Assembly: GCA_964016885.1 (NCBI GenBank)
Contig: CAXHJY010001525.1
Coordinates: 1-57,838, forward strand
Length of the DNA stretch: 57,838 nucleotides
Source: Eledone cirrhosa
Taxonomy: Eukaryota
Reading direction: 5' to 3'
Both the position numbers and the translations under genes were made by a program. Every line of letters starts with the position of its first letter. Within the stretch, counting starts at the first letter, position 1. Positions 1-55,277 of this stretch are shown one piece after another. The notes under the pieces are model-generated. The model saw only the letters and a program-made list of their open reading frames with translations. It searched no databases and was not told the origin of the DNA.

Positions 1-1769
1 TATGTGAATATAGACATAGAATATTCAAAAATATTCTGTATGTTTATAATAAACATTTTGAAGACCTAATCGCTATAGAATAGAATACGTCACGTATTAC
101 AATTAGATTCTCGATAAAAGCAAGGGAAGTAATCTACGCGTTTCATTCTTGTTAGAAATCATCAGGACCACATATCCAGTGCTTTTATCGAGAATGACAC
201 AGCTAGAGACTTATAGAATACTTAGCTGTGTACAGGAACTGGTTTGAAAGAGCGGTTGCCGGTCCGGCAGAAATTAGAAATTGGAATAAATGCTCTGAAA
301 TAGCGATATATATGTGAATATAGACATAGAATATTCAAAAATATTCTGTATGTTTATAATAAACATTTTGAAGACCTAATCGCTATAGAATAGAATACGT
401 CACGTATTACAATTAGATTCTCGATAAAAGCAAGGGAAGTAATCTACGCGTTTCATTCTTGTTAGAAATCATCAGGACCACATATCCAGTGCTTTTATCG
501 AGAATGACACAGCTAGAGACTTATAGAATACTTAGCTGTGTACAGGAACTGGTTTGAAAGAGCGGTTGCCGGTCCGGCAGAAATTAGAAATTGGAATAAA
601 TGCTCTGAAATAGCGATATATATGTGAATATAGACATAGAATATTCAAAAATATTCTGTATGTTTATAATAAACATTTTGAAGACCTAATCGCTATAGAA
701 TAGAATACGTCACGTATTACAATTAGATTCTCGATAAAAGCAAGGGAAGTAATCTACGCGTTTCATTCTTGTTAGAAATCATCAGGACCACATATCCAGT
801 GCTTTTATCGAGAATGACACAGCTAGAGACTTATAGAATACTTAGCTGTGTACAGGAACTGGTTTGAAAGAGCGGTTGCCGGTCCGGCAGAAATTAGAAA
901 TTGGAATAAATGCTCTGAAATAGCGATATATATGTGAATATAGACATAGAATATTCAAAAATATTCTGTATGTTTATAATAAACATTTTGAAGACCTAAT
1001 CGCTATAGAATAGAATACGTCACGTATTACAATTAGATTCTCGATAAAAGCAAGGGAAGTAATCTACGCGTTTCATTCTTGTTAGAAATCATCAGGACCA
1101 CATATCCAGTGCTTTTATCGAGAATGACACAGCTAGAGACTTATAGAATACTTAGCTGTGTACAGGAACTGGTTTGAAAGAGCGGTTGCCGGTCCGGCAG
1201 AAATTAGAAATTGGAATAAATGCTCTGAAATAGCGATATATATGTGAATATAGACATAGAATATTCAAAAATATTCTGTATGTTTATAATAAACATTTTG
1301 AAGACCTAATCGCTATAGAATGAAACGCGTAGATTACTTCCCTTGCTTTTATCGAGAATCTAATTGTAATACGTGACGTATTCTATTCTATAGCGATTAG
1401 GTCTTCAAAATGTTTATTATAAACATACAGAATATTTTTGAATATTCTATGTCTATATTCACATATATATCGCTATTTCAGAGCATTTATTCCAATTTCT
1501 AATTTCTGCCGGACCGGCAACCGCTCTTTCAAACCAGTTCCTGTACACAGCTAAGTATTCTATAAGTCTCTAGCTGTGTCATTCTCGATAAAAGCACTGG
1601 ATATGTGGTCCTGATGATTTCTAACAAGAATGAAACGCGTAGATTACTTCCCTTGCTTTTATCGAGAATCTAATTGTAATACGTGACGTATTCTATTCTA
1701 TAGCGATTAGGTCTTCAAAATGTTTATTATAAACATACAGAATATTTTTGAATATTCTATGTCTATATT
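1..1769. mobile_element. 310-bp tandem repeat array with one hammerhead ribozyme per unit (non-LTR retrozyme-like); internal inversion at ~1321
   Basis: Units start at 1, 311, 621, 931 and 1241 and look identical by eye. From 1321 the same sequence runs reverse-complemented to 1769, then (AT)n. HHRs lie on the minus strand at 129-171, 439-481, 749-791, 1059-1101 and on the plus strand at 1605-1647. Confidence 0.9.
1605..1647 (+). ncRNA. Type I minimal hammerhead ribozyme (310-bp family, representative copy)
   Basis: Helix I GTGGTC/GATTAC (two G-U pairs); core CTGATGA at 1611-1617; helix II TTCT-AACA-AGAA; GAAA at 1632-1635; palindromic helix III ACGCGT; GUA cleavage triplet ending at 1641. 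Enclosed by a perfect 16-bp inverted repeat at 1581-1596/1654-1669. Confidence 0.88.
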
Positions 1770-5139: not shown

Positions 5140-6025
5140 ACAATTATTATTAAGGTGCAGAGCGCCGGGAAAAAATAAAATAAAAACCGCCTTGCAGTAT
5201 TTAAACATGTCCTATTTACATTTTGAGTTCAAATACCAACGGGTTCGATAAAATAAGTAGCAGACAAGTATTTCTTTCCCTGAAGATAGAGATCACCTCG
5301 TTATCTATTACATGGGACAGTTGATTGGCGATGTAGTATATGCTTCGCAGTATTTGAGTATATATCTCGCCGGTGTTAACTTTCCCTTTCATCTTTCCGA
5401 GATCGGTCAATTTAATCGCCCGATTAACAAAAAACATTGCTGGCCTTGTGCCTAAATCATTATTAGCAGAATCGGACGAGCGATATTTAATTAATTACAT
5501 CCCTTTAAGTTCTGAACTCAAACTCTGCTCGTGTCAACTTTACTTTTCATAGACCGATAAAATAAAGTACCAGTCAAGTACTGGAGTCAAGTTAATCGAT
5601 TATATCTGTTCCTTATTATTGACAGATTTCGAATTGTTAGAGCGTCGGGCCAAATGCGCAACGATATTCGTTCCGGCTCTTTACTTCGCCTTTCATCTTT
5701 CCGATGTCGATAAAATAGTAAAGTACCAGTCACGTACTCGTTCGATTTAATCGACTACGAACCTCCATAAGTTTGTGGCCTTGTGTCTATGTTAGAAAGG
5801 ATTACTGTCGTTATGAAAAAATATGAAAATAAAAAAATTAAATAAGAAATAATAATCATAATGTACAATTTATTATTATTATTATTATTTTTATTCCGCC
5901 AAAGTAACTTTGCCTTTCATCCTTACGGGATCGTAAAATAAAGTACCAGTAATGCACTGAATATTTGCTGGCCTTGTGCCAAAAGTAGAAAGTTATTATT
6001 ATTATTATCATCATCATTATTATCA
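5140..6025 (+). mobile_element. Cluster of about 5 degenerate tandem SINE copies (tRNA-derived, Meta/MESC-like core)
   Basis: Recurrent blocks TGAGTTCAAAT (B-box-like), AACTTTGCCTTTCATCC, CGATAAAATAAAGTACCAGT, GGCCTTGTGCC and an ATT-rich tail. The family name is from memory; boundaries are approximate. Confidence 0.7.
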
Positions 6026-6327
6026 TTAATCTTTCCCGCAAAAAGCTAAATGAACTAAATAATCTCGTTTACATCATTCACAAAGTGTGATACAAACCGC
6101 GTGCCGATATAAGCAGCCGCCACCACCATCTACATCAACATATTATATATCGAAGTCGAATCACTTGACTATATACTCCACCCAACCCCCGTAAACACAG
6201 TTACAAAAATTGGTCTCGTGCCTAGCCTAAAAGAAAACAATTATGAATACTGTATTAGCAGCAGTGGAGAACGATCAGGGTTTTTCGGTTGCATTAAACT
6301 TTTTTCTGTGTGGCTATCCCCTATGGT

Positions 6328-9162
<2,835 letters not shown>

Positions 9163-9166
<4 letters not shown>

Positions 9167-9704
9167 AAGCTACTCAAAGGGCAATCACGAAAAAGATAGA
9201 TGGCCATGTCAGACCTTGACTACTGGGGTCGATTGGAAAACCTGAAACTTTACTCACTCCAACGTCGCCGTGAGCGTTATATTATCTGCATGATGTGGAA
9301 AATGTTCCATCATCACTGCCCAAATGATGTTGGCATCGCCTTCAAGATACACCCAAGGCTTGGGCCCCGTGCTATCCGTCCCATTCAAAAATCTAAATCG
9401 CAACTCATAACAACAGTACGGCACAATTATTTCACCTCAATCGGCCCTGCTCTCTTCAACATCACGCCAGGACACGTCAAAACAGAAACTGACCACACAA
9501 AATTCAAGAAGTCTTTGGACAAATTCCTCCAAGTAATCCCGGACAAACCACCCACACCCGGATATGTCTCCGCAAACAGTAATTCTCTTCTCGAATGGGC
9601 CATGGGTGCCCAAATCCTGAATTGAAAGACTTCGCCAGGTGGTGCTATTAAGTTAGACATGGCCTGGGCCAATACTGGCCAAAACATTTCAAAGTTATTC
9701 AAAG

Positions 9705-9706
<2 letters not shown>
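9163..9706 (+). mobile_element. CR1/L2-type LINE 3' fragment
   Basis: Encodes LENLKLYSLQRRRERY...KFKKSLDKFL, a C-terminal region typical of this group. Ends in (TTCAAAGTTA)x2 and is near-identical to the 20255-21384 copy. Confidence 0.85.
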
Positions 9707-9733
<27 letters not shown>

Positions 9734-9742
<9 letters not shown>

Positions 9743-9856
9743 TGAGATTCTACAGTTCTAGTCCTGTAGAATCTCATCTATATTAAAACTTTTATACTCT
9801 GCTATGTATTGAGTACCTTACTTACTGTGGTTACCTCCGATTCAACCCGGAATAAC

Positions 9857-11418: not shown

Positions 11419-11440
11419 ATATATATATATGTGTATATAA

Positions 11441-12213
11441 ATGTTGCATGGCAGTGAGACCTGGGCTTTGTGTGCAGAGGATATACGCAGACTAGAGAGG
11501 AACGAAGCTTGCATGCTCCGCTGGATGTGTAACAGTAATATACGTGAACGGCAAAGCATAAACGAACTAAGGAAAAAATTAGAGATAAGAGGGGTCAGAT
11601 GTTGTTTACTCGAGAGAAGGCTACGTTGGTATGGACACGTGATGCGCATGAAAGTCGATAGCTGTATAACAAAGTGCAGGGCAATAAAGATAGACGGTAG
11701 CCACGGAATAGGCAGACCTAGAAAAACCTGGGACGAGCTGATAAACTCCGACCTCACACACTTACACCTCTCCAAGACAATGTCACTGGACCGAGACCTT
11801 TGGCGGTACTCAGTAACAGAGAAGACCCGCCTTGCCAGTAGGCATCTCTAACAAAATACACCCCGTCCCACCACCACCACCCCCACCCCATCCACACCAC
11901 CCCGTCCTATGTAAAGTTATGTTGGTGCTGCGCCATCCGGGCCGAAACAAATGAGATCGTGTAGGTGTCACGACAAAAAAAACACACAGTCCACGCTGTA
12001 ATGTGGCCGTGTAGGCAACACGGTAAAAACCTCCCAGACCCACACTGTAAATGTGGTTGGTGTTAGGAAGGGCATCCAACTGTAGAAAACCTGCCAGACA
12101 GTCCTATGCGAGCAAGACAATCACTCTTGCCTCAAGTGGGACTACCCCCGTCCAAACCCATGCAAGCGTGGAACACGGACGTTAAACGTTGATGATGATG
12201 ATGATGATGATGA
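11441..12213 (+). mobile_element. RTE-type LINE, subfamily A, 5'-truncated
   Basis: ORF end MLHGSETW...[12 protein letters not shown]...GRPRKTW (11441-11851), structured 3' UTR, (GAT)n tail, (AT)n flanks. Confidence 0.92.
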
Positions 12214-13371: not shown

Positions 13372-13565
13372 ATATATATATATATATATGTGTATATGTG
13401 TATATATATATATATGTGTATATATATATATATATATGTGTATATGTGTATATGTGTATATATATATATATATGTGTATATATATATGTGTATATATATA
13501 TATATATATGTGTATATATATATATATATATATGTGTATATATATATATGTGTATATATATATAT

Positions 13566-14231
13566 TTTTCACTGGTCACTCACAGTAAAGTGACCAGTGA
13601 AAAACTCGGTACATCTACATATGTATACGTGTGTGTATTCATATGCATACTAGTATTTCAGTATACATATGTGGATGTACATTTTTAACTTAATTGTTTA
13701 AGCGTCAGTCATACAAAAGTGAGTTACAAACGAACAAAATTTAATTTTGTTTCGTTATTTGTTGTTATCGTCTCCGTTGAACCGGTACGTACTCACGCTC
13801 TATGCAAATTAGTCTGCCCACTACTAATTTTCATAGAAAAAGCATATAACGATATGTGCTTTTACGATTCTCTAGAAAGGCCGGAAGATAGGTAAATATT
13901 GCTGATGAGATGTAACAACATCGAAACTAGTTCAATATTCCTTGTCTGGCTTTCTGGAGAATAGAGGAAAGGTGTTTCCTCAAAAACCAGTATGACTCTA
14001 AAAACCGGTTTTGTCTGTGTGTTTACATACAGAATAGCTGGACACTCACAGTAAAGTGACCAGTGAAAAACTCGGTACATCTACATATGTATACGTGTGT
14101 GTATTCATATGCATACTAGTATTTCAGTATACATATGTGGATGTACATTTTTAACTTAATTGTTTAAGCGTCAGTCATACAAAGTGAGTTACAAACGAAA
14201 CGAAATTTAATTTTGTTTCGTTATTTGTTGT

Positions 14232-14233
<2 letters not shown>
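13566..14233 (+). mobile_element. 466-bp-period partial tandem repeat with hammerhead ribozyme (second retrozyme-like or non-autonomous Penelope family)
   Basis: 13577-13767 is repeated at 14043-14233 (period 466). HHR at 13895-13939, several long hairpins, a 5' fold-back, and (AT)n on both sides. Confidence 0.85.
13895..13939 (+). ncRNA. Type I minimal hammerhead ribozyme
   Basis: AATATTG-CTGATGA-GATGT(AACA)ACATC-GAAA-CTAG-T-T-CAATATT: 7-bp helix I, 5-bp helix II, palindromic ACTAGT helix III, GUU triplet. Outer helix at 13868-13879/13950-13961. Confidence 0.92.
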
Positions 14234-14303
<70 letters not shown>

Positions 14304-14305
14304 TA

Positions 14306-14356
<51 letters not shown>

Positions 14357-14376
14357 ATATATATATATATATAATA

Positions 14377-14635
<259 letters not shown>

Positions 14636-14732
14636 ATATATATGTATATATATATATGTGTATATATATATATATATATGTGTATATATATATATATATG
14701 TGTATATATATATATATATGTGTATATATATA

Positions 14733-14763
<31 letters not shown>

Positions 14764-14866
14764 GTGTATATATATATATATATGTGTATATATATATATA
14801 TATGTGTATATATATATATATGTGTATATATATATATATATGTGTATATATATATATATATATGTG

Positions 14867-14901
<35 letters not shown>

Positions 14902-14952
14902 GTGTGTATATATATATATATGTGTATATATATATATATATGTGTGTATATA

Positions 14953-16832
14953 TCATCATCATCATCATCATCATCAGGTTTAGCGTCCGTGTTCCACGCT
15001 TGCATGGGTTTGGACGGGGGTTTTCCCACTTGAGGCAAGAGTGGTTGTCTTGCTCGCATAGGACTGTCTGGCGGGTTTTCTACAGTTGGATGCCCTTCCT
15101 AACACCAACCACATTTACAGTGTGGGGCTGGGAGGTTTTTACCGTGTTGCCTACACGGCCACATTACAGCGTGGACTGTCTGGCGGGTTTTCTACAGCTG
15201 GATGCCCTTCCTAACACCAACCACATTTACAGTGTGGGGCTGGGAGGTTTTTACCGTGTTGCCTACACGGCCACATTTACAGCGTGGACTGTGTTTTTTT
15301 GTCGTGACACCTACACGATCTCATTTGTTTCGGCCTGGATGTTGTGGGACCAACATAACTGTACATTGAAAGGGGCGGTGTGGATGGGGTGGAGGTGGTG
15401 GGACGGGGGGGGGGGGGTGTTCTGATAGAGATGCCTACTGACTGTAGTAGGTTTTTACTTTGTATTTAGGTAAGGCGGGTCTTCTCTATTACTGAGTACC
15501 GCCAAAGGTCTCGGTCCAGTGACATTGTCTTGGAGAGGTGTAAGTGTGTGAGGTAGGAATTTATCAGCTCGTCCCAGGTTTTTCTGGGTCTGCCTACTCC
15601 GTGGCTACCGTCTATCTTTATTGCCCTGCACTTTGTTATACAGCTGTCGTCTTTCATGCGCATCACGTGACCGTACCAACGTAGCCTTCTCTCGAGTAAA
15701 CAACATCTGATCCCTCTTATTTCTAATTTTTTCCTTAGTTCGTTTATGCTTTGCCGTTCACGTATATTACTATTGCACATCCAGCGGAGCATGCAAGCTT
15801 CGTTCCTCTCTAGTCTGCGTATATCCTCTGCACACAATGCCCAGGTCTCACTGCCATGCAGCATTGCTGTTCGTATGCAGGCATCGTATAACCTGCCTTT
15901 CATTTTTAGGGAGAACCCTCTAGCGGCTAATAGTGGTATAAGCTCTCTGAACTTTTTCCATCCAGTTCTGACTCTAGCTACTGTACTTTCAGAGCACCCT
16001 CCCCCAGTGCTGATTTTGTCACCCAGGTAATGGAAGCTGTCCACTATTTCTATAGAACCCTCTGCGCAGTTGAAGGAGCTAGTATTTTGTGGGCACTTGC
16101 TGCTACTTATTGCACCAGAGCACCGGCCACATGTAAAATCTATGTTCTTAGTTAGCTTACCTGTGATCCCACTACATCTTTTATGCACCCATACTTTGCA
16201 TTTGGGACATAAAATGGAGTTTCTACCTACGCCTTTCCTACACACAGAGCATGGCCATTTCCCAGATGGGACTGCCGCCATATTTTCTTTCCTACAAACT
16301 AGAACTTTTGTCTTAGCCAGGTTAATTTTAAGGCCTTTTGATTCTAGGCCGTGCTTCCATGTTTGGAATTTCTTCTCTAGTTCGGTTATTGATTCAGCTA
16401 TGAGCGTTAGATCATCTGCGTATAGGAGTTCCCATGGGCAGCCGGTCTTGAACTCCTCTGTTATAGCCTGAAGGGCAATAATAAATAGTAGGGGGCTAAG
16501 AACAGAGCCCTGATGGACACCAACTTTTACGCTAAACTCTTCACTATATTCGTTGTTAATTCTAACCTTACGGACTGTTTCTTTATACATGGCTTGTATA
16601 GCTCTCACAAGCCATTCGTCAACACCTAGTTTTATAAGGGACCACCAGATAATGGAACGGGGGACTCTGTCGAAGGCTTTCTCCAAGTCGACGAAAGATA
16701 AGTATAGGGGTTTACTTTTAGCTAGGTACTTCTCCTGTAGTTGTCGTACAATGAAAAGAGCGTCTGTGGTACTTTTTCCTGACACAAACCCGAACTGCAT
16801 TTCATCTAGATCAATTCTCTCTCTGATTAGTT
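14953..16832 (-). mobile_element. RTE-type LINE, subfamily A' (duplicated 3' UTR module), 5'-truncated
   Basis: RT ORF 15466-16800 with [23 protein letters not shown] and YADD; (CAT)n at 14953 on the plus strand. Confidence 0.93.
15466..16830 (-). CDS. RTE LINE reverse transcriptase + PHD finger, N-terminally truncated
   Basis: Open frame with RT motifs and CSVC..CPKC..HKRC..CGRC. Confidence 0.8.
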
Positions 16833-17213: not shown

Positions 17214-20254
<3,041 letters not shown>

Positions 20255-20255
<1 letters not shown>

Positions 20256-21384
20256 ACTTTGAATAACTTTGAATTGAAATGTTTTGGCCAGTATTGGCCC
20301 AGGCCATGTCTAACTTAATAGCACCACCTGGCGAAGTCTTTCAATTCAGGATTTGGGCACCATGGCCCATTCGAGAAGAGAATTACTGTTTGCGGAGACA
20401 TATCCGGGTGTGGGTGGTTTGTCCGGGATTACTTGAGGAATTTGTCCAAAGACTTCTTGAATTTTGTGTGGTCAGTTTCTGTTTTGACGTGTCCTGGTGT
20501 GATGTTGAAGAGAGCAGGGCCGATTGAGGTGAAATAATTGTGCCGTATTGTTGTTATGAGTTGCGATTTAGATTTTTGAATGGGACGGTTAGCACGGGGC
20601 CCAAGCCTTGGGTGTATGTGTTTTTGTTAATCTTGAAAGGAGATGCCAACATCATTTGGGCAGTGATGATGGAACATTTTCCACATCATGCAGATAATAT
20701 AACGCTCACGGCGACGTTGGAGTGAGTAAAGTTTCAGGTTTTCCAATCGACCCCAGTAGTCAAGGTCTGACATGCCATCTATCTTTTTCGTGATTGCCCT
20801 TTGAGGAGCTTCAAGTTTCATGATACTTTGTTTCGTGTGGGGAGACCACAGTGGACAACAGTATTCAAGGTGTGGTCGGGCGAAAGTAGAGAAGAGAAGG
20901 ATAATGGTGCGGGAATCTCTCGACTGGAAGGTTCTGAGGATCCAGGAACACATTCTGCGGGCCATGTCAACTTTGCTGCTTATATGCGTGGTCCAGCTTA
21001 TGTTGCTGTCCACGGTTACTCCCAAGTCTCTGATGTTGTTAGATGCCACGAGAGTTTCCCCGGAGGGAAGGGAGTACGGGAGTTTCAGAGCATCCTCTTT
21101 TCCAAAGTGGATCAGTTCGAATTGTCTTCGTTCAGTAACATGTTGTTCTTTTCTGCCCATTGGGTAACAGCCAGTAGGTCTGACTGAAGGCTTATCCGGT
21201 CATCCACGCCATTGATGACCTTTTGGAGCTTGGAATCATCAGCGAAAATTTTAATGTTGCTGTGTTTGATGGTGTCAGTGATGTCATTAATATAGATGAT
21301 GAAGAGAAGTGGGCCCAACACAGTGCCTTGTGGGACTCCACTACTGACTTTGGCTGGGCTTGATTTGACTCCCTCAACTACAAC
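20255..21384 (-). mobile_element. CR1/L2-type LINE, 5'-truncated, frameshifted RT C-terminal half
   Basis: [43 protein letters not shown] and LYSLQRRRERY spread across frames; same 3' tail as 9163-9706. Confidence 0.9.
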
Positions 21385-27222: not shown

Positions 27223-27417
27223 TGTCTCTCGCTCTCACACGCATACACACACACTCTATTATATATTTACTTTTGTTCTAAGATGTTGACCAACCAAGGC
27301 TGTGTGTGTAACACTCCAATCAGTAAACGATGATGCAATTAGGTTCAAGAACTCAACAACTACCAAATGCGATTTGGTAGCCCATGGCAGAGTATACGCC
27401 ACAGAAAATATGCATTT

Positions 27418-27492
27418 ACGGGGTCGATAAAATAAAGTACCAGTAATGTACTGGTTAATTGCTGGTCTTGTGCCTAAAGTAGAAAAAATTAT
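27418..27492 (+). mobile_element. SINE 3' fragment (same family as 5140-6025)
   Basis: GGGGTCGATAAAATAAAGTACCAGT...GGTCTTGTGCCTAAAGTAGAAA. Confidence 0.7.
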
Positions 27493-30812: not shown

Positions 30813-30924
30813 AATGGTTTCTTTATTAGACAAACATGGCTTACATTAAGAGGACAATAAAGACGGTACAGTGTGGGTTTTTTGTGTGAATGAATGGTTT
30901 ATAATAATAATGATGATGATGATG

Positions 30925-31066
30925 ATTTCTACTATAGGCACAAGGCCAGCAATTTCTGGGGAGGGGGAAAATCGATTAAATCGGCCTTAGTGCATTACTG
31001 GTGCTTTATTTTATCGACCCCGTAAGGATGAAAGGCAAAGCTAACCTCTGCGGAATTTGAACTCGT
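30925..31066 (-). mobile_element. SINE copy
   Basis: Reverse complement of the SINE blocks (GGCACAAGGCC, TTTTATCGACCCC, GGATGAAAGGCAAAG, ATTTGAACTC). Confidence 0.75.
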
Positions 31067-31874: not shown

Positions 31875-32047
31875 GCAGTATCGGTAGAGGGTCGGACGCC
31901 ATGCTTTGACGCATAGAGTTACGGCCCTTGCCATTCTGAGTTCAAATCCTGCCAAGGTTAACTTTGCCTTTCATCCTTACGTGGTCGATAAAATAAAGTA
32001 CCAGTAACACACTGGGTAATTGCTGGCCTTGTGCCAAAAGTAGAAAC

Positions 32048-32050
<3 letters not shown>
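31875..32050 (+). mobile_element. SINE copy
   Basis: CTGAGTTCAAATCC, AACTTTGCCTTTCATCC, GTCGATAAAATAAAGTACCAGT, GGCCTTGTGCC. Confidence 0.75.
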
Positions 32051-32110
<60 letters not shown>

Positions 32111-32409
32111 TGTAATAAACAACATAAGGCAATTATTCCATTTACCAGTGGTTTCTTAAAAGCAGAATCTGTGTGCATTATCATCATCATTTTACGTCTG
32201 CTTTTCCCTGCTTGATATATATAATATATAGATATATATATATAATGTGTGTGTGTGTGTGTTTATACATGTGTGTATGTATGTACACTAACACACACAA
32301 ATATATATATATATACATAGTAATAATAATAAATTTGAAGACTAAAATCCAAAGAGGGCTCGATAAGGATAAATATATATCAAATATATAAGAACCGTAG
32401 AGCAAATAC

Positions 32410-32538
32410 TTATTAAAATAACAGATTAAAGTTTAAGCAAAGAATCGCTGCTTTCACCCTTAACGGGATCTTCTGAAGATCCCGTTAAGGGTGAAAGCAG
32501 CGATTCTTTGCTTAAACTTTAATCTGTTATTTTAATAA
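32410..32538. repeat. Perfect 129-bp palindrome (64-bp arms) centred on a hammerhead core
   Basis: Centre T at 32474. The plus strand reads CTGAAGA-TCCC(GTTAA)GGGT-GAAA-GCA..TGC-T-T. Confidence 0.92.
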
Positions 32539-32676: not shown

Positions 32677-33280
32677 CAATATAGACAGTTTTATAGATAA
32701 ATAGATTTGACATACCGTTCAACATCGACTTGTATTTGAAAAAGTTGATTTGGCAGTGAAAAATTGTAAACAGAAAGAAAGAAAGAGAGAAAGAAGGAAA
32801 GAAAGAAAGAAAACGAAGAAAAAGAAGAAAAAGAAGAAATGCATGCAACAAAATACATGCAACAAAATAGAGAGATGGAAAGATAGATAAAGAGAAGAAC
32901 TTCATGTAAAGAAACAGAGAGAGATATATATAGAGAGAGAGGAAATAGATAGAGATAGATATATAGAGAAAAGTAGGTAGTTGAACATCCGTTGAATGAA
33001 CGTATCAATGATACATTTATTTATTTATTTATTTATTTAGCTCTAGTATTAATGTAAGGGAGATATATGTGGTTAGGAAAGAAACCAGCCGTTATATAGA
33101 GAGAAAAATGAAAAGTAACCAGACATAGGCGAGGCAGAATTTAAAAACCCTATGTTTTAATGTAGAAATATTAGTTTGTATAAAAACCAGGCACTATAAT
33201 GTAAATATCAGTATTCCTGAATGAGACACGTATCCATAATGTGTGAAAAGTAATGATCTTATGTCTAGTTTTAAAAATTC

Positions 33281-35061
33281 ATATGACTGACACTGATAAG
33301 AAGGTCGCTTGGAAGTGTCACTACGAGAGGCTACTAAATGAGGAGAATAAATGGGAGAAGGATAGTCTCCCCCAGATCGATCCAATAGAGGGACCAGCAG
33401 TGTTAGTTGAAGGTAGTATAATAAATAAGGCAATCAAAGATATGAAGACGGGTAAGGCGGCTGGGCCTTCGGAAATAGTCGCTGAGATGCTGAAGGCCTC
33501 TGGAACGGTGGGACACACCATGGTCACCCGCATAGTAAACCAAGTCATACAGAATGGGGTTGTTCTGAAGGACTGGCGTAGCAGCATCATCATTAACTGT
33601 TACAAGGGTAAAGGAGACGCCCTAGATAGGAGTAACTATAGAGAGATTAAATTAATCGACCAGGTCATGAAAGTCACGGAAAAAGTAATAGTGCAACTAA
33701 TCAGAGAGAGAATCGATCTAGATGAAATGCAGTTCGGGTTTGTGTCAGGCAAAAGTACCACAGACGCTCTTTTCATTGTACGACAACTACAGGAGAAGTA
33801 CCTAGCTAAAAGTAAACCCCTATACTTAGCCTTTGTCGACTTGGAGAAAGCCTTCAACAGAGTCCCCCGTTTCATTATCTGGTGGGCTCTTAGAAAACTA
33901 GGTGTTGACGAATGGCTTGTGAGAGCTATACAAGCCATGTATAAAGAAACAGTGAGCAAGGTTAGAATTAACAACGAATATAGTGAAGAGTTTAGCGTAA
34001 AAGTTGGTGTCCATCAGGGCTCTGTTCTTAGCCCCCTACTATTTATTATTGCTCTTCAGGCTATAACAGAGGAGTTCAAGACCGGCTGCCCATGGGAACT
34101 CCTATACGCAGATGATCTAACGCTCATAGCTGAATGAATGGCCGAGCTAGAGAAGAAATTCCAAACATGGAAGCACGGCCTAGAATCAAAAGGCCTTAAA
34201 ATTAACATGGCTAAGACTAAAGTTCTAGTTTGTAGGAAAGAAAATAAGGCGCCGGTCCCTTCTGGGAAATGGCCATGCTCAGTGTGTAGGAAAGGCGTAG
34301 GTAGAAACTCCATTTTATGTCCCAAATGCAAAGTATGGGTGCATAAAAGATGTAGTGGGATCACAGGTAAGCTAACTAAGAACACATATTTTACATGTGG
34401 CCGGTGCTCTGGTGCAATAAGTAGCAGCAAGTGCCCACAAAATACTAGCTCTTTCAACTGCGCAGAGGGTTCTATAGAAATAGTGGACAGCTTCCGTTAC
34501 CTGGGTGACAAAATCAGCAATGGGGGAGGGTGCTCCGAAAGTACAGTAGCTAGAGTCAGAACTGGTTGGAAAAAGTTCAGAGAGCTTATACCACTATTAG
34601 CCGCTAAAGGGTTCTCCCTAAAAGTGAAAGGCAGGTTGTATGATGCCTGCATACGAACAGCAATGTTGCATGGCAGTGAGACCTGGGCATTGCGTGCAGA
34701 GGATATACGCAGACTAGAGAGGAACGAAGCTTGCATGCTTCGCTGGATGTGTAATAGTAATATACGCGAACGGCAAAGCATAGACGAACTAAGGAAAAAA
34801 TTAGAAATAAGAGGGATCAGATGTTGTTTACTCGAGAGAAGGCTACGTTGGTATGGTCACGTGATGCGCATGAAAGACGACAGCTGTATAACAAAGTGCA
34901 GGGCAATAAAGATAGATGGTAGCCACAGAGTAGGCAGACCCAGAAAAACCTGGGACGAGCTGATAAATTCCGACCTCACACACTTACACCTCTCCAAGAC
35001 AATGTCACTGGACCGAGAGCTTTGGCGGTACTCAGTAATAGAGAAGACCCGCGTTACCTAA
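33281..35061 (+). pseudogene. RTE RT/PHD ORF with one in-frame stop
   Basis: TGA at 34135-34137 replaces the Ser found in the sister copies; the two track ORFs are in the same frame. Confidence 0.88.
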
Positions 35062-35561
35062 ATACAAAGTAAAACCTACTACAGTCAGTAGGCATCTCTA
35101 ACAAAATACACCCCCGTCCCACCACCCCCACCCCATCCACACCGCCCCTTTCAATGTAAAGTTATGTTGGTGCCACAAAATCCAGGCCGAAACAAATGAG
35201 ATTGTGTAGGTGTCACGACAAAAAAACACACAGTCCACGCTGTAATGTGACCGTGTAGGCAACACGGTAAAAACGTCCCAGTCCCACACTGTAAATGTGG
35301 TTGGTGTTAGGAAGGGCATCCAGCTGTAGAAAACCTGCCAGACAGTCCACGCTGTAATGTGGCCGTGTAGGCAACACGGTAAAAACCTCCCAGCCCCACA
35401 CTGTAAATGTGGTTGGTGTTAGGAAGGGCATCCAACTGTAGAAAACCCGCCAGACAGTCCTATGCGAGCAAGACAACCACTCTTGCCTCAAGTGGGAAAA
35501 CTCCCGTCCAAACCCATGCAAGCATGGAACACGGATGTTAAACGATGATAATGATGATGAT
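33281..35561 (+). mobile_element. RTE-type LINE, subfamily A', 5'-truncated (lacks APE endonuclease)
   Basis: RT frame to 35061, a 112-bp duplication in the 3' UTR (35231/35343) and a (GAT)n tail. Confidence 0.93.
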
Positions 35562-35636: not shown

Positions 35637-35712
35637 TATATATATATGTATTAGAAAGTGAGGTTTTTTTTACAAATTGAAAAATAACCGGGGTCCGACA
35701 CGAGTGAAAGTA

Positions 35713-35841
35713 TAAAGAATAAGAGATGAAATTGAAAATACAACTGGAGGCTTATTTGCGAAACCAGTAAAGGAACCAAATAAATATATATATTTTTTTT
35801 TTAAATCCAGTTGCATTTTCGATTTCATCTCTTTTACTTTA
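35713..35841. repeat. 36-bp imperfect inverted repeat enclosing a possible truncated hammerhead 3' half
   Basis: Arms 35713-35748/35806-35841 with 4 mismatches; the spacer begins GGC-TTATTT-GC-GAAA-CCAG-TA. Confidence 0.65.
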
Positions 35842-36589: not shown

Positions 36590-38280
36590 TCATCATCATC
36601 ATCATCATCACCGTTTTACGTCCGTTCTTCCACGCTAGCATGGGTTAGACGGGTTGTCCTGTTGTGGGCAGTGTCTGGTCGGCTGACCATGCCTTGCTCA
36701 TACAGGAACTGATCTGGCTTGATTTCTACAGCTGGATGCCCTTCCTAACACCAACCTCATTTACAGTGAGTGCTGGGTGCTTTTTCGTGGCGCCTACACG
36801 TCCACTTTACAGTGTGGGCTGGGTGCTTTTTTGCCGTGGCACCTCCACGACCACCTTGCGGTGGTGGGGGGGGGGGGGGCATATTGTTTATATGCTTCAG
36901 CATGTACCCATGGGAGGTCGGGTACCCTGTATTACTGCGTGACGCCAGAAGTCACGGTCGTGTGTCATTGACTTTGAGAGGTGTAGTTGGGTAAGGTCGG
37001 CTTTTATCACCTCATCCCAAGTCATCTTGGGTCTCCCCACTCCGCGGTTTCCATCAACTTCTAGTGCTCTGCACCTTTTTATGCAGCTGTCATCCTTCAT
37101 ACGCATCACATGTCCATACCAGCGTAACCGCCTCTCCTGCACGCAGCATTTGATTCCTCTTATGCTCAGTCTCTCTCTCAATTCATTTATGCTTTGTCGT
37201 TCACGTATATTACTGTTACACATCCATCGGAGCATGCAGGCTTCGTTTCTCTCTAATCTACGTAAGTCTTCCACCTTCAGCGCCCAGGTCTCACTACCAT
37301 GCAACATCGCTGTTCGGATACACGCATCATACAGTCTGCCTTTCATTCTGAGGGAGAAGCCTTTTGCAGCTAGCAGTGGTAGTAGTTCCCTAAACTTCTT
37401 CCATCCCGTTCTTACCCTAGTTATTGTACTTTCTGAGCACCCACCTCCGTTGCTAATTCGGTCACCTAGGTAGCAGAAGCTGTCTACTGTTTCTACAGGG
37501 CCCTCCCAGAGATTGGTGGTACTTGTTTCCTGTGGCTGTTTGCTTGCTGTTTCAGCACAGCTGCTGCATGTGAATCCTACATTCTTAATTAAGCTTCCTG
37601 AGATCCCGCTACATCTCTTGTGTACCCATTGTTTGCATTTGGGGCAAAGAATGGAGTTCCTACCTACACCTTTCCTACATACTGAGCAAGGCCATTTCCC
37701 TGAGGGGATCTGGGTTCTGTTTTCTCGTCTACTTATAAGGACCTTAGTCTTTGTCATGTTGACTTTGAGGCCCTTTCTCTCTAGTCCCTGCTTCCAGGTT
37801 TGGAATTTATTCTCTAGTTCTACCATAGATTCAGCTATGAGTGCGAGGTCATCAGCATACAGGAGTTCCCATGGGCATCCGGTCTTAAACTCCTCCGTTA
37901 TTGCCTGCAGGACTATGATGAACAGGAGAGGGCTAAGAACAGAGCCCTGGTGGACCCCAACCTGTACGCTAAATTCCTCGCTATACTCATTGCCAATCCT
38001 AACTTTGCTGACTGCTCCCCTATACATGGCTTGTACCGCTTTCACAAGCCATTCATCTACTCCTAGTTTTCTAAGAGCCCACCAGATTACTGCACGTGGA
38101 ACTCTGTCAAAGGCTTTCTCAAGGTCGACAAATGCCAAGTAGAGTGGCTTACTTTTAGCTAGGTACTTTTCCTGTAATTGCCTCACAAGGAAGAGCGCAT
38201 CAGTGGTGCCTTTCCCTGGAACAAACCCAAATTGCATCTCGTCTATATTCACCCGGTCCCTAATCAGCTGTGCTATAACT
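36590..38280 (-). mobile_element. RTE-type LINE, subfamily B, 5'-truncated
   Basis: Open RT+PHD frame 36897-38280; 3' UTR and tail differ from subfamily A. Confidence 0.93.
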
Positions 38281-38288
38281 ATATATAC

Positions 38289-38321
<33 letters not shown>

Positions 38322-38332
38322 CATATATATAC

Positions 38333-38363
<31 letters not shown>

Positions 38364-38390
38364 CATATATATACATATATATATATATAC

Positions 38391-39461
38391 AGGAAAGGTG
38401 TAGGTAGGAACTCCATTCTCTGCCCCAAATGCAAACAATGGGTACACAAGAGATGTAGCAGGATCTCAGGAAGCTTAATTAAGAATGTAGGATTCACATG
38501 CAGCAGCTGTGCTGAAACAGCAAGCAAACAGCCACAGGAAACAAGTACCACCAATCTCTGGGAGGGCCCTGTAGAAACAGTAGACAGCTTCTGCTACCTA
38601 GGTGACCGAATTAGCAACGGAGGTGGGTGCTCAGAAAGTACAATAACTAGGGTAAGAACGGGATGGAAGAAGTTTAGGGAACTACTACCACTGCTAGCTG
38701 CAAAAGGCTTCTCCCTCAGAATGAAAGGCAGACTGTATGATGCGTGTATCCGAACAGCGATGTTGCATGGTAGTGAGACCTGGGCGCTGAAGGTGGAAGA
38801 CTTACGTAGATTAGAGAGAAACGAAGCCTGCATGCTCCGATGGATGTGTAACAGTAATATACGTGAACGACAAAGCATAAATGAATTGAGAGAGAGACTG
38901 AGCATAAGAGGAATCAAATGCTGCGTGCAGGAGAGGCGGTTACGCTGGTATGGACATGTGATGCGTATGAAGGATGACAGCTGCATAAAAAGGTGCAGAG
39001 CACTAGAAGTTGATGGAAACCGCGGAGTGGGGAGACCCAAGATGACTTGGGATGAGGTGATAAAAGCCGACCTTACCCAACTACACCTCTCAAAGTCAAT
39101 GACACACGACCGTGACTTCTGGCGTCACGCAGTAATACAGGGTACCCGACCTCCCATGGGTACATGCTGAAGCATATAAACAATATGCCCCCCCCCCCAC
39201 CGCAAGGTGGCCGTGGAGGTGCCACGGCAAAAAAGCACCCAGCCACACTGTAAAGTGGACGTGTAGGCGCCACGAAAAAGCACCCAGCACTCACTGTAAA
39301 TGAGGTTGGTGTTAGGAAGGGCATCCAGCTGTAGAAATCAAGCCAGATCAGTTCCTGTATGAGCAAGGCATGGTCAGCCGACCAGACACTGCCCACAACA
39401 GGACAACCCGTCTAACCCATGCTAGTGTGGAAGAACGGACGTAAAACGGTGATGATGATGA

Positions 39462-39465
<4 letters not shown>
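38391..39465 (+). mobile_element. RTE-type LINE, subfamily B, shorter inverted twin of 36590-38280
   Basis: Near-exact reverse complement of 36590-37676; ORF to 39170. Confidence 0.93.
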
Positions 39466-39518
<53 letters not shown>

Positions 39519-39520
39519 TA

Positions 39521-40214
39521 AAAAGTACCATGAAGTACAAAGTACAATGAAAAGAGCGTCTGCTCTTTTCATTGTACGACAACTACAGGAAGAGGGATCA
39601 GATGTTGTTTACTAGAGAGAAGGCTACGTTGGTATGGTCATGTGATGCGCATGAAGGATGATAGCTGTATAACAAAGTGCAGGGCAATAAAGATAGACGG
39701 TAGCCACGGAATAGGCAGACCCAGAAAAACCTGGGACGAGCTGATAAACACCGACCTCACACACTTACACCTCACCAAGACAATGTCACTGGACCGAGAC
39801 CTTTGGCGGTACTCAGTAATAGAGAAGACCCGCCTTGCCAGTAGGTATCTCTAACAAAATACACCCCGTCCCACCACCACAACCCCCACCCCATCCACAC
39901 CACCCCCGTTCTATGTAAAGTTATGTTGGTGCCGCGCCATCCAGGCCGAAACAAATGAGATCGTGTAGGTGTCACGACAAAAAAACACACAGTCCACGCT
40001 GTAATGTGGCCGTGTAGGCAACACGGTAAAAACCTCCCAGACCCACACTGTAAATGTGGTTGGTGTTAGGAAGGGCATCCAACTGTAGAAAACCTGCCAG
40101 ACAGTCCTATGCGAGCAAGAAAATCACTCTTGCCTCAAGTGGGGCTACCCCGTCCAAACCCATGCAAGCGTGGAACACGGACGTTAAACGTTGATGATGA
40201 TGATGATGATGATG

Positions 40215-40219
<5 letters not shown>
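39521..40219 (+). mobile_element. RTE-type LINE, subfamily A 3' fragment with rearranged 5' junction
   Basis: 39591-40219 is the ORF end, 3' UTR and (GAT)n tail; 39521-39590 is built from RT sequence about 1 kb upstream. Confidence 0.9.
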
Positions 40220-40280: not shown

Positions 40281-40313
<33 letters not shown>

Positions 40314-40340
40314 GATATATATAGTTTTAATATAGATGAG

Positions 40341-40388
40341 ATTCTACAGGACTAGAACTGTTTCATTCATTAGAAATCATCAGGAAAT
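40341..40388 (-). ncRNA. Hammerhead ribozyme in a ~66-bp insert (40323-40388)
   Basis: Minus strand: TTC-CTGATGA-TTTC(TAAT)GAAT-GAAA-CAG(TTCTAGTC)CTG-T-A-GAA; GUA triplet; helix I is only 3 bp. Confidence 0.72.
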
Positions 40389-44255
<3,867 letters not shown>

Positions 44256-46128
44256 GGAAAAGACCATAAAACGGGCAGTGACCCTGTCACGAGACCACCA
44301 ACACGGCCAGTCTGTGGGGCTAACATTGCTCGTAACTACAGACTGTCCTACTTCCTCTCCCTGATCATACGCCCCATCATTGAAATGTCCCCAGATGTAT
44401 GTGACAGCACGGAGGACCTCCTCAGCAGAATCGGCGAGAGTAACCGATCTAGGGACCTAACAAACTGCATAATAGGTAGTATGGATGTTGTGTCCCTGTA
44501 TCCATCTATTGATGTGGATTTGGCTGTGGAGAAATGCATAGAAATGATCAGTGAGAGCAATGTTGAGTTCCGTAGGATTGATACCTGTGAGCTGGGACTC
44601 CTACTTAAACTTACCTATAGTAATAATTATCTAGACACATATGACCTTAGCAACCTGTGCCCTACAAGACCAGCAAGAGGCAGACCACCTACCATTACCT
44701 CAATGGCCAAGAAAACCCACACAGATAGATGGAACGGGTGGACCAGAGCCATACGGACCCCCGAAAACCACGATGAACTAAAGAAAATGATTGCACATGC
44801 GGTGGGGGCCAGCATAAAATTAACCCTTCAGGAACATATGTTCAAATTTAATGGAAAAACATATGCCCAAGAGAAGGGAGCAGCCATTGGTGTTAGCATT
44901 GCAGGTGACATAGCTAACTTATTCATGGTATGGTGGGACAGTAGACTTAAACTTAAAGAACAATTGGAAGACCCCTTAACCCTGATAATGTACTCTCGCT
45001 ATGTTGATGATATAAACATCGTAGTTAAAACACCCCCACTAGAGAACAGTCAGGAATTAGAGAAAAACACAATGGAAAGCATCCAGCAAATAGCTAACTC
45101 CATCCACCAAAGTATCAGAGTTACTATAGAAAACCCAAGCAAACACCCCAACCATCGATTACCTGTACTAGACACAGAGCCCTAGTTAGATACCATTAAT
45201 AACAAACAACAAATCCTCCATTCCCATTATGCCAAACCTATGGCTTCCAAATATCTGATCCACCGAAACTCAGCTGTTTCAGACCATGCCAAAATCAACA
45301 TACTGATTGCGGATTTGGTACGGGTGATGAGAAACGTGTCCCACATATGCAACCCCCGGAGAACTAGAGAGACACATACAACACTTCATCCACCGTATGC
45401 AGTTCTCTGGTTACAATCAGAGAGATAAATCAGAGTGTATAGAGGAGCAAGAACCAAATGGTAAAAAATGGTAAATAATGACACAAATGGGACCTGCCCC
45501 TTGTATAGGAGCAAATTTTGGAATAGAATAGAAAGAACTAGGAATAAGGCTAATAGAATAAACTCATGGTATGATAGCAATAAATACCAGAGTGTAATGT
45601 TCATCGATACAACCCCTAGAGGTGAATTAGCTTACAAATTTAGAAGGGCCCTAGATAAACAAACTCAATATTAAGATAGTAGAAAGACCAGATACATCCG
45701 TAAAAACACTTATTAGCAAGACATACCCTTTTCAAAGACCCCCCTGTATAGATAAGAAATGTATAACCTGTAAATTAAGCCCCCATATTAACTGTAAAAC
45801 TAGAAATGTAGTATATAGCATAAGATGTACTGAAGGACAATGTAGAGATAAAAATATAGTGTACATAGGTGAGACAGCCCGTAGTGTAGAGGATAGGATA
45901 AATGAACACTGGCGAGACCTTCAAGATAGTAAAGAATCATCTGTACTCAACCAACATGCTAAAATAGAACATAAGGGTAAATTAGAGAACATAGAAATAA
46001 AAATAGAACCTACACACAGAAAAGACGCAATGTTTAGACAAATCACAGAGGCAATAAACATAAAAGAATTACAACCAAAATTAAATAGAAAACATGAGTG
46101 GAACAGCAACATCACAACTTACAATTAA
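44256..46128 (+). pseudogene. Penelope RT-GIY-YIG polyprotein, interrupted
   Basis: Split across track ORFs 44385-45185, 45240-45428, 45468-45674 and 45859-46128 by stops and frameshifts. Confidence 0.88.
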
Positions 46129-46329
46129 GGACAAAATGAAAACACAGATGCACATAGAAAAAACAACCAACCAGTAACATGTAAATAAACAAATAAATAA
46201 ACGAATATAAACACACACAGACACCCGGATGTGGCGCATGCGCAGACTGAGCACACAACACACACACAGAAACATGATGGCGTAGGACAGAACAAAGGAG
46301 AGGCACAAAAACAAAGAAAAGAAACCCCA

Positions 46330-46372
46330 GTCACTGAAGAGGTCACAGAATGTGTGACGAAAGAACTTTGAC
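46330..46372 (+). ncRNA. Minimal hammerhead ribozyme of the Penelope pseudo-LTR
   Basis: GTCA-CTGAAGA-G-GTCACA(GAATG)TGTGAC-GAAA-G(AA)C-T-T-TGAC, in the position expected for Penelope HHRs. Confidence 0.78.
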
Positions 46373-46740
46373 AATATATAAACAACCATCTGGTTGTGGA
46401 ACCAACCAACCAACCGGTAATTTATAAATTCCTAAATTTATAAATTTATTATCATACATTGAAGTGAAAGCAACTGGTGCGTGTGTCTCTTATTGGCAAC
46501 ATGACCCTCCCAAAGTATAACAATATCGGTTTCAACACACGTTTTCAGATAAAGAATCTTGCTAAACAAATTCAGAAACGAAATATATATATACATATAT
46601 ATATACATATATATATATACATATATATACATATATATATACATATATATATATACATATATATATATACATATATATATATACATATATATATATACAT
46701 ATATATATATACATATATATATATACATATATATATATAC

Positions 46741-48110: not shown

Positions 48111-55277
<7,167 letters not shown>

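What the first reader, a model, noticed from the sequence alone, without database searches (positions are those of the whole stretch)
13566..14233. Second, unrelated HHR repeat family (466-bp unit), highly structured
Seen: 1.4 tandem units and a textbook HHR at 13895-13939 inside an extended helix. There is a 20-bp stem GTACATCTACATATGTATAC/GTATACATATGTGGATGTAC (13609-13680, repeated in the second unit) and other hairpins, with no credible ORF. It shares loop II AACA and the long outer helix design with the 310-bp family despite different sequence. Inference: another retrozyme-like or non-autonomous Penelope RNA, permuted relative to its cleavage site.
Basis: partly seen in the sequence, partly recalled or inferred. 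Interest (0 to 1): 0.78.

Follow-up and report, generated by a model that had tools for sequence, protein, structure and literature searches.

The report
Penelope-carried hammerhead retrozyme in TA repeats
A 466-base non-coding repeat with a hammerhead ribozyme motif sits as 1.4 head-to-tail copies in a TA microsatellite, with ends typical of Penelope-like transposon insertions, so it is likely a new family of the known animal "retrozymes", likely copied from a circular RNA by a Penelope enzyme.

Summary
Observation confirmed. Bases 13565-14234 hold 1.41 copies of a 466-bp unit inside a (TA)n tract. There is one type I hammerhead (Rfam HH9, 36.5 bits, E 1.6e-7, below the gathering score; 0 of 5000 shuffles), a strongly folded unit (z -9.6 to -11) and no credible ORF.

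Three refinements. (1) Helix III is one pair plus a palindromic tetraloop, so the ribozyme is predicted to cut as a dimer, and this one-ribozyme copy would not release a monomer. (2) The ends look like a Penelope-like element (PLE) insertion: partial tandem, a 12-nt 5' fold-back, microsatellite target, 3' end 302 nt past the cut site. (3) The shared AACA loop is a generic hammerhead feature, not a link to the 310-bp family.

Public contigs show a high-copy, variable family with head-to-tail joints and a compensatory change in helix II. A decayed RT + GIY-YIG PLE in the window has a different, minimal-type hammerhead and no similarity to the unit. The host is likely an octopod.

Verdict: new member of the non-LTR retrozymes, likely PLE-mobilised. 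Cleavage, expression and circles are untested. Interest 0.42.

The parts
13565..13576 (.). 5' fold-back extension of 12 nt. 13565-13580 is the exact reverse complement of 13589-13604; it perfects and lengthens a native imperfect hairpin.
   Evidence: exact match true. The native arm at 14030-14046 differs at the base equivalent to 13576 and upstream of 13572.
13578..14043 (+). One full 466-nt unit, non-coding, predicted 67% paired as a circle.
   Evidence: joint 14043->13578 on a contig of run X5.
14044..14234 (+). Partial second unit (0.41); its end is the 3' end of the insertion, the inferred start of reverse transcription.
   Evidence: 3 differences in 191 nt from 13578-13768.
13884..13955 (+). 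Type I hammerhead: helix I 13895-13901/13933-13939 with internal loop and outer extension, core 13902-13908 and 13923-13926, helix II 13909-13922, palindromic helix III 13926-13931, predicted cut after 13932 (GUU).
   Evidence: compensatory change at 13910/13921 in relatives.
13867..13962 (+). Long outer helix enclosing the hammerhead.
   Evidence: -36.4 kcal/mol, z -5.1, 0 of 200 shuffles, for 13860-13970.
13609..13680 (+). 20-bp stem of TA/CA/TG-rich sequence with an inner 8-bp hairpin; second copy at 14075-14146.
14194..14222 (+). 13-bp hairpin with an AC-rich 5' arm, 12 nt before the 3' end; candidate signal for the start of reverse transcription (inferred).
   Evidence: analogy to the AC-rich stem-loop of PMC11167929.
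12213..13564 (.). Upstream (TA)n/(TG) microsatellite, the inferred target.
14235..14953 (.). Downstream (TA)n/(TG) microsatellite in the same orientation as upstream; no target-site duplication can be discerned.
44256..46582 (+). Context, not part of the element: a 5'-truncated, decayed autonomous-type PLE (RT, CX4CXXC linker, GIY-YIG, minimal-type hammerhead at 46334) in (TA)n; candidate class of helper.

Best explanation
This is a 466-bp non-coding, hammerhead-bearing repeat unit inserted as 1.4 head-to-tail copies in a TA microsatellite, likely a non-LTR retrozyme copied from a circular RNA by a Penelope-like reverse transcriptase/endonuclease acting in trans. Steps: (1) Tandem source arrays are transcribed by read-through (inferred; head-to-tail joints shown in contigs, no RNA data). 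(2) Two neighbouring hammerheads pair through their palindromic helix III and cut out 466-nt monomers (predicted). (3) A host ligase closes the monomers into circles, in which the lone ribozyme would be nearly silent (inferred from other retrozymes). (4) A microsatellite-targeting PLE protein nicks (TA)n and starts cDNA inside the RNA, just 3' of an AC-rich hairpin and 302 nt past the cut site (end position shown; enzyme inferred). (5) It copies through the cut/ligation site for 1.41 units (shown: the copy is longer than one unit and crosses the site). (6) The cDNA end folds back on a hairpin, extends 12 nt on itself and joins the target (fold-back shown; mechanism inferred). This copy has one ribozyme and would be a dead-end monomer unless trans-pairing occurs. 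Odds: retrozyme-type non-autonomous element about 0.8; with a circle as template about 0.55.
For: HAMMERHEAD: real motif. It is the canonical metazoan kind (7-bp helix I with internal loop, 4-5 bp helix II), not the minimal kind of PLE pseudo-LTRs defined in PMC4209133. The window's own PLE motif fits the minimal kind by eye (4-bp helix I, unpaired base before a longer helix II; sequence). DIMER: two cores co-fold as a strand-swapped double hammerhead at -30.2 kcal/mol versus 2 x -13.4 alone; monomer helix III probability is 0.0. SELECTION ON RNA STRUCTURE: A13910T and T13921A each occur in about half the depth of run X1 (182,304 of 350,500; 176,432 of 332,352) and together on one contig of X5. 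Of 18 listed variable sites, 11 are paired; 9 keep pairing and 2 break it, versus a mean of 6.0 breaks in the control, P 0.012. No variant of 8% or more is listed in the catalytic core. One X6 contig shows the canonical GUC triplet. MULTIMERS: exact 14043->13578 joint in X5 at depth 185.6, equal to its body contig (188.3); 10 variant joints listed in X1. 1040 contigs were laid in X1; share running on into unrelated sequence was 0, 0.13 and 0.01 in X1, X5, X6. PLE HALLMARKS (partial tandem, inverted 5' piece, one-sided 30-40 bp tail, microsatellite bias; PMC8557442): the first two and the target are seen here. The tail is seen in the 310-bp family, where one 3' end runs 36-38 nt beyond the other three. 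ONE TEMPLATE: both partial units carry G at 13764/14230 where X1 reads T in 390,189 of 390,218 depth. 310-bp arrays share diagnostic bases within an insertion and differ between insertions. A RT + GIY-YIG PLE is inserted in (TA)n in the same window.
Against: No RNA evidence at all; cleavage, expression and circles are untested. Only 1 of 9 predicted Xenopus retrozyme dimers cleaved in vitro (10.64898/2026.07.22.740005). For Poseidon_Ac, uncleaved RNA was the main substrate and the hammerhead was not needed in vitro (PMC11167929), so a linear multimer explains the same anatomy. The GUU triplet lets A14 pair with U17 in the dimer (8-bp palindrome), which may weaken this copy. No sequence link to the one PLE at hand (best local score 21-25, shuffle means 22-24), so the helper is not identified. 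G13671A (23% of X1 depth, all of X5) breaks a C-G pair of the 20-bp stem, and G13789T breaks another pair. The covariation test counts both sides of a pair, and the shared T13748 and the 13736/13748 pair are CpG transitions that could recur. X1 lists no exact 14043->13578 joint, short contigs limit the test for an attached ORF, and 37 loose ends were not shown. One X5 contig has 24 nt of non-unit sequence before 13985. X1 may or may not be this window's species.
Confidence: 0.55

Rival explanations
1. Same non-autonomous element and PLE helper, but the template is an uncleaved linear multimeric transcript from a tandem array; the hammerhead is weak or incidental and circles are not needed.
For: PLE RT starts internally on unprocessed RNA and hammerhead mutants still insert in vitro (PMC11167929). 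Dimer-dependent motif with a GUU triplet. A homogeneous source array would also give two partial units that share G13764.
Against: Helix II covariation and an invariant core imply selection for an active ribozyme. A near-private base in both partial units is simpler from one circle. Circles are abundant for coral, mussel and axolotl retrozymes (PMC7229834).
Confidence: 0.25
2. The unit is the pseudo-LTR of an autonomous PLE family not present in the window; this copy is a pLTR-only by-product of that family.
For: 24 of 57 Xenopus retrozyme families matched transposons, nearly all of them PLEs, at their termini. Ends here are PLE-like. One X5 contig carries non-unit sequence before 13985. No genome was available to search.
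Against: Upstream of the ribozyme lies the unit's own 3' part, not ORF sequence. Head-to-tail joints are present and run-on into unrelated sequence is near zero in X1 and X6. The hammerhead is canonical rather than minimal in type. There is no similarity to the window's PLE.
Confidence: 0.12
3. A satellite spread by DNA-level processes (unequal exchange, extrachromosomal circles) that carries a relic ribozyme.
For: High copy depth and tandem joints; no RNA data to the contrary.
Against: Strand-biased fold stability (-150 vs -124 kcal/mol), compensatory changes, 5' fold-back and microsatellite insertion; similar fold-backs at other inserts in the window.
Confidence: 0.05

Closest known systems
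Metazoan non-LTR retrozymes (Cervera and de la Pena 2020, PMC7229834; Li, Clavereau and Pollet 2026 preprint 10.64898/2026.07.22.740005)
   Same: Short non-coding tandem unit with a canonical type I hammerhead, low GC (34%), highly self-paired predicted circle with an accessible ribozyme, co-occurrence with PLEs.
   Different: 466 nt is just above the 150-450 bp range of the 2020 paper and inside the 51-972 bp range of the 2026 preprint. This locus has one ribozyme, so it fails the preprint's 'active' criterion. No homology to a PLE pseudo-LTR was found. It shows explicit PLE insertion marks in (TA)n, which I did not see described in the parts of either paper that I read. Circles untested.
Axolotl HHR_Amex1 / newt satellite hammerheads
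   Same: Helix III of one base pair capped by a palindromic tetraloop; efficient cleavage only as dimers (PMC7229834).
   Different: Here in a likely mollusc, whereas most invertebrate retrozyme motifs are said to cut well as monomers (PMC7761336). The triplet in this copy is GUU.
EN+ Penelope-like elements (Neptune/Nematis-type linker; Poseidon_Ac)
   Same: Partial tandem, 5' inverted piece, microsatellite or AT-rich target, 3' end internal to the RNA and downstream of the hammerhead, AC-rich hairpin near the 3' end.
   Different: No ORF; canonical rather than minimal hammerhead; the repeat unit is the whole element.
Non-autonomous Chlamys PLEs such as MRC1 (PMC8557442)
   Same: Non-coding, pseudo-LTR-forming, head-to-tail insertions.
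   Different: Those resemble their autonomous partner at the 3' end, and most Chlamys lack canonical hammerheads; no partner similarity was found here.

Membership tests
Type I hammerhead ribozyme | Conserved core CUGANGA...GAAA...UH with helices I and II | tested here: met
   0 of 5000 shuffles at the observed helix lengths. Below Rfam gathering score (36.5 vs 52).
Type I hammerhead ribozyme | Internal loop in helix I facing loop II (canonical, not minimal, form) | tested here: met
   Full-length alignment to HH9 including both sides of the helix I internal loop and a 6-nt loop II. The tertiary contact itself is not shown.
Type I hammerhead ribozyme | Self-cleavage | not testable with these tools
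   Predicted to need a dimer.
Non-LTR retrozyme | Short non-coding repeat unit, GC under 50%, no LTR/PBS/PPT, no ORF | tested here: met
   466 nt, GC 0.34; ORF tests; no tRNA gene in the window. PBS/PPT were not scanned separately.
Non-LTR retrozyme | Head-to-tail tandem copies in the family | tested here: met
   1.41 units here; joints in X5 and X1. Array lengths unknown.
Non-LTR retrozyme | [quoted passage not shown] | tested here: not met
   One hammerhead at this locus. This marks the copy as a solo derivative; the family elsewhere could not be examined.
Non-LTR retrozyme | Stable, self-paired circular fold | tested here: met
   z -9.55, 0 of 60 shuffles; prediction only.
Non-LTR retrozyme | Expressed as unit-length linear and circular RNA | not testable with these tools
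   Contigs cannot show RNA ends or circles.
Insertion by PLE machinery | Partial tandem, 5' inverted piece, microsatellite target | tested here: met
   against PMC8557442 passages.
Insertion by PLE machinery | One-sided 30-40 bp tail from two RT start sites | tested here: inconclusive
   Only one insertion of this family in the window. 4 X1 contigs end at 13700 in (TA)n, 68 nt before this copy's end. A 36-38 nt tail is seen in the 310-bp family.
Autonomous PLE or its pseudo-LTR | RT + GIY-YIG ORF between the repeats | tested here: not met
   The 275 nt between the repeats hold the ribozyme and no ORF.
Autonomous PLE or its pseudo-LTR | Sequence identity with the pseudo-LTR of an autonomous family | tested here: inconclusive
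   None to the single PLE in the window; other families not searchable.

The most novel reading that the evidence does not exclude
Several unrelated ribozyme-bearing circular RNAs (the 466-nt, the 310-nt and a third family) all ride one TA-targeting Penelope enzyme without sharing sequence with it. They would be recognised by shape, such as an AC-rich hairpin or a TA-like stem that mimics the target, and copied by rolling-circle reverse transcription. This locus would be a single-pass record of that reaction, and retrozymes could arise independently of pseudo-LTRs rather than only descend from them.
Probability: 0.25. Interest if true: 0.68.

Novelty: new member of a known kind. Interest (0 to 1): 0.42.

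Why it matters
The enzyme that moves animal retrozymes is an open question: a 2020 review says the repeats show no motif pointing to their helper (PMC7761336), and the 2026 preprint argues for PLEs from co-occurrence and phylogeny in vertebrates. Here the insertion ends themselves carry PLE marks, and a candidate helper class lies in the same window. That gives a direct test with the existing in vitro PLE system: does a PLE protein copy a retrozyme circle in trans, and from which start site? It would also extend retrozymes to a likely cephalopod. My searches listed no paper on cephalopod retrozymes, only a count of 235 hammerhead matches in giant squid (PMC6962438). The supplements of PMC7229834 and of the preprint were not readable and may list such families.

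Tried and rejected
No whole genome is held, so copy number, array lengths and linked ORFs could not be surveyed.

Exact-pattern scans found nothing: 0 matches in metagenome contigs, viral contigs and prokaryote genomes.

No RNA holder was listed among 24 runs; this is not evidence on expression.

Wide host range or horizontal spread: 20 runs under 17 organism labels share words with the stretch, but I laid only 4 of the 24 listed. Raw reads under the same organism label as X5 gave 0 laid reads from about 1% of the run (X21; the tool calls this no test). Carry-over between samples is possible, so I make no claim.

Copy number from depth: rejected, because summed contig depth is not copy number.

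Kinship with the 310-bp unit: no blastn hit; local score 27 vs shuffle mean 20.6, 4 of 100 as high, alignment not inspected. Rejected beyond the ribozyme core.

A shared GAAACGAA word at the PLE's 3' end and in the 466 hairpin was noticed after the fact and is not supported by the shuffle test.

The 72-aa minus-strand ORF was rejected. Rfam microRNA matches to the 20-bp stem are far below gathering scores. The sigma-70 scan is irrelevant and at chance. The alignment of four hammerheads misplaced the PLE motif and was not used.

I first read G13671A as strengthening the stem; one search showed that it breaks a pair. PMC12602865 passages held nothing on targeting. Earlier-finding look-ups by place and by sequence were empty.

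Full report
SETTING. The window is AT-rich eukaryotic DNA made largely of (TA)n tracts with transposon islands between them. It holds several LINE fragments (RT + PHD) and one decayed RT + GIY-YIG Penelope-like element, PLE. The best of 66 longer relatives of that PLE's RT is a named Octopus vulgaris protein, 72% identical over 99% of the query, so the host is likely an octopod (inference). No whole genome is held.

OBSERVATION. The island 13565-14234 lies between two microsatellite tracts of the same orientation. 13578-13768 recurs 466 bp later with 3 differences in 191 nt, giving 1.41 units. The unit folds far better than shuffles: linear z -11.0, 0 of 100; circular z -9.55, 0 of 60; plus strand -150.2 versus minus -123.8 kcal/mol. 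The 20-bp stem is real (0 of 300 shuffles reach 20 bp). The longest ATG frames are 20 aa on plus and 72 aa on minus. The latter is marginal (21 of 500 shuffles), has no Pfam match and is broken by a common deletion at 14009.

RIBOZYME. Rfam gives nothing at gathering level, but a full-length Hammerhead_HH9 match at 13884-13955, 36.5 bits, E 1.6e-7; this is the top of 56 rows, and the next rows are microRNA hairpin models far below their cut-offs. My type I pattern found 12 hits in the window: this one, 10 in the 310-bp family and 1 doubtful AT-rich hit. It occurred in 1 of 5000 shuffles of the element loosely and in 0 of 5000 strictly. Helices I and II are well formed in the circular ensemble (0.63-0.94 and 0.91-1.0). 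Helix III is a single A-U pair around the palindromic loop CUAG, with probability 0.0 as a monomer. Two cores co-fold as a strand-swapped double hammerhead, -30.2 versus 2 x -13.4 kcal/mol. This is the design of canonical metazoan type I motifs and of axolotl HHR_Amex1, which cut efficiently as dimers (PMC4209133; PMC7229834). The triplet here is GUU; one contig of run X6 shows GUC. Only one ribozyme is present, so this locus would not release a monomer by itself.

RELATIVES. Of 24 listed runs, 20 share words with the stretch; I laid 4 of the 24 on the unit. X1 gave 1040 contigs, mostly 90-100% alike, with very high summed depth. X5 gave 3 contigs, X6 31, and X21 (raw reads, about 1% of the run, same organism label as X5) none. 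Head-to-tail joints: an exact one in X5 at body depth, and 10 variant forms listed in X1; X1 lists no exact joint. Run-on into unrelated sequence was 0, 0.13 and 0.01 in X1, X5, X6; contigs are short, so this test is weak, and one X5 contig has 24 foreign letters before 13985. Helix II shows an A-U to U-A double change (13910, 13921) at about half of X1 depth and in phase on one X5 contig. Of 18 listed variable sites, 7 are unpaired or weak, 9 keep pairing and 2 break it (13671 in the 20-bp stem, 13789). Random placement gives 6.0 breaks on average, P 0.012; both sides of a pair are counted, so this is a rough figure. No listed variant falls in the catalytic core.

ENDS. At the 5' end, 13565-13580 is the exact reverse complement of 13589-13604, while the native arm seen in the second unit is imperfect and shorter. 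The first 12 nt therefore match the element's own hairpin, which I read as a cDNA fold-back. The 3' end at 14234 lies 302 nt past the predicted cut and 12 nt after a 13-bp hairpin with an AC-rich arm. Four X1 contigs end instead at 13700 in (TA)n. Partial tandems, inverted 5' pieces, one-sided 30-40 bp tails and microsatellite bias are PLE marks (PMC8557442). Internal initiation at an AC-rich stem-loop downstream of the hammerhead, on AT-rich targets, was shown in vitro for Poseidon_Ac, where uncleaved RNA was the main substrate (PMC11167929). The 310-bp family shows the same grammar: long 5' inversions, three 3' ends within 2 nt of each other about 130 nt past the cut, and one end 36-38 nt longer. 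Array A (1321 + 453 nt) has no internal differences, and array C carries the same three substitutions in each unit on both arms, with one 4-nt insertion. In the 466 element both partial units carry G13764/14230 where X1 has T in 390,189 of 390,218 depth. This fits both units being copied from one template, but cannot separate a circle from a homogeneous array, and X1 may be another species.

HELPER. The PLE at 44256-46582 sits in (TA)n and has the CX4CXXC linker of the type proposed to mediate microsatellite bias in Neptune elements. By eye it carries a minimal-type hammerhead at 46334. It is decayed and shows no similarity to the 466 unit. It indicates a class of helper, not the helper.

MECHANISM AND RIVALS. 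Best: a non-LTR retrozyme whose arrays give dimer-cut monomers and circles, copied in trans by a PLE enzyme into (TA)n for 1.41 turns and ended by a fold-back (0.55; 0.8 for the class of element whatever the template). Rivals: linear uncleaved multimer as template (0.25), pseudo-LTR of an unseen autonomous PLE (0.12), DNA-level satellite (0.05). Shown: anatomy, motif, fold statistics, tandem joints, covariation. Inferred: transcription, cleavage, ligation, enzyme.

KNOWN AND NEW. It works like, and meets the sequence-level definition of, metazoan non-LTR retrozymes (PMC7229834; preprint 10.64898/2026.07.22.740005). It fails the preprint's two-ribozyme criterion for an active copy, and expression is untested. 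A more-than-unit copy from a circle was already proposed for PLEs (PMC4209133) and retrozymes. What is added is a new family in a likely cephalopod, with insertion ends that point to PLE machinery. Six paper searches listed no cephalopod retrozyme paper.

WHAT I SAW OF EACH PAPER. Preprint 10.64898/2026.07.22.740005: parts 1-3 of 5, supplements not seen. PMC7229834: parts 2-4 of 6, supplement unreadable. PMC11167929: parts 1-2 of 4. PMC4209133: parts 1-2 of 4. PMC8557442: 12 of 16 passages. PMC7761336: 12 of 13 passages. PMC6962438: 2 passages. PMC12602865: 3 passages. Unseen supplements may already list cephalopod families. Hammerhead position numbering (A14, A15.1, U16.1, H17) is from established knowledge.

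VERDICT. Real feature, first reading supported, new member of a known kind. Interest 0.42.

Noticed in passing
window 1-1769, 17288-17482, 46954-48110: 310-bp hammerhead family: units share bases within an insertion and differ between insertions; long 5' inversions; one 3' end with a 36-38 nt tail; palindromic helix III with a CGCG loop, U.U at the base of helix II, GUA triplet. The copy at 17324 has a different base at the variable core position.
   Followed up: partly
window 44256-46582 (+): Decayed 5'-truncated PLE (RT, CX4CXXC linker, GIY-YIG) with a minimal-type hammerhead at 46334, inserted in (TA)n; nearest named relative from Octopus vulgaris.
   Followed up: partly
window 9736-9854 (+) and 40313-40386 (-): Fragments of a third hammerhead-bearing family sharing 39 identical bases; the first has a 22-bp 5' fold-back, the second a core resembling the 310-bp family's ribozyme. 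Both lie in (TA)n.
   Followed up: no
window 32404-32538: Perfect fold-back of about 65 bp (-104 kcal/mol) ending in (TA)n, with a CUGAAGA...GAAA motif across its tip; possibly a short 5'-inverted PLE-type insertion.
   Followed up: no
window 35652-35839: 188-bp island in (TA)n with several long imperfect inverted repeats; no match elsewhere in the window.
   Followed up: no
window 11440-12212, 14954-16831, 33247-35559, 36590-40217, 55277-57378: Two related LINE families (RT followed by a PHD finger, (CAT)n tails), about 76% alike; some copies 99% identical; 36595-39465 forms a 1082-bp inverted duplication.
   Followed up: no
window 9164-9705 and 20256-20814: Two 95%-identical, oppositely oriented copies of an unidentified element in (TA)n; no Pfam match for the two frames tested.
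   Followed up: no
window 5375-6035, 27415-27485, 30892-31064, 31934-32056: Several decayed copies of a short interspersed repeat.
   Followed up: no
run X1 contigs at window position 13700: Four contigs of the 466 family end in (TA)n 68 nt before this copy's 3' end, suggesting a second start site for reverse transcription.
   Followed up: no
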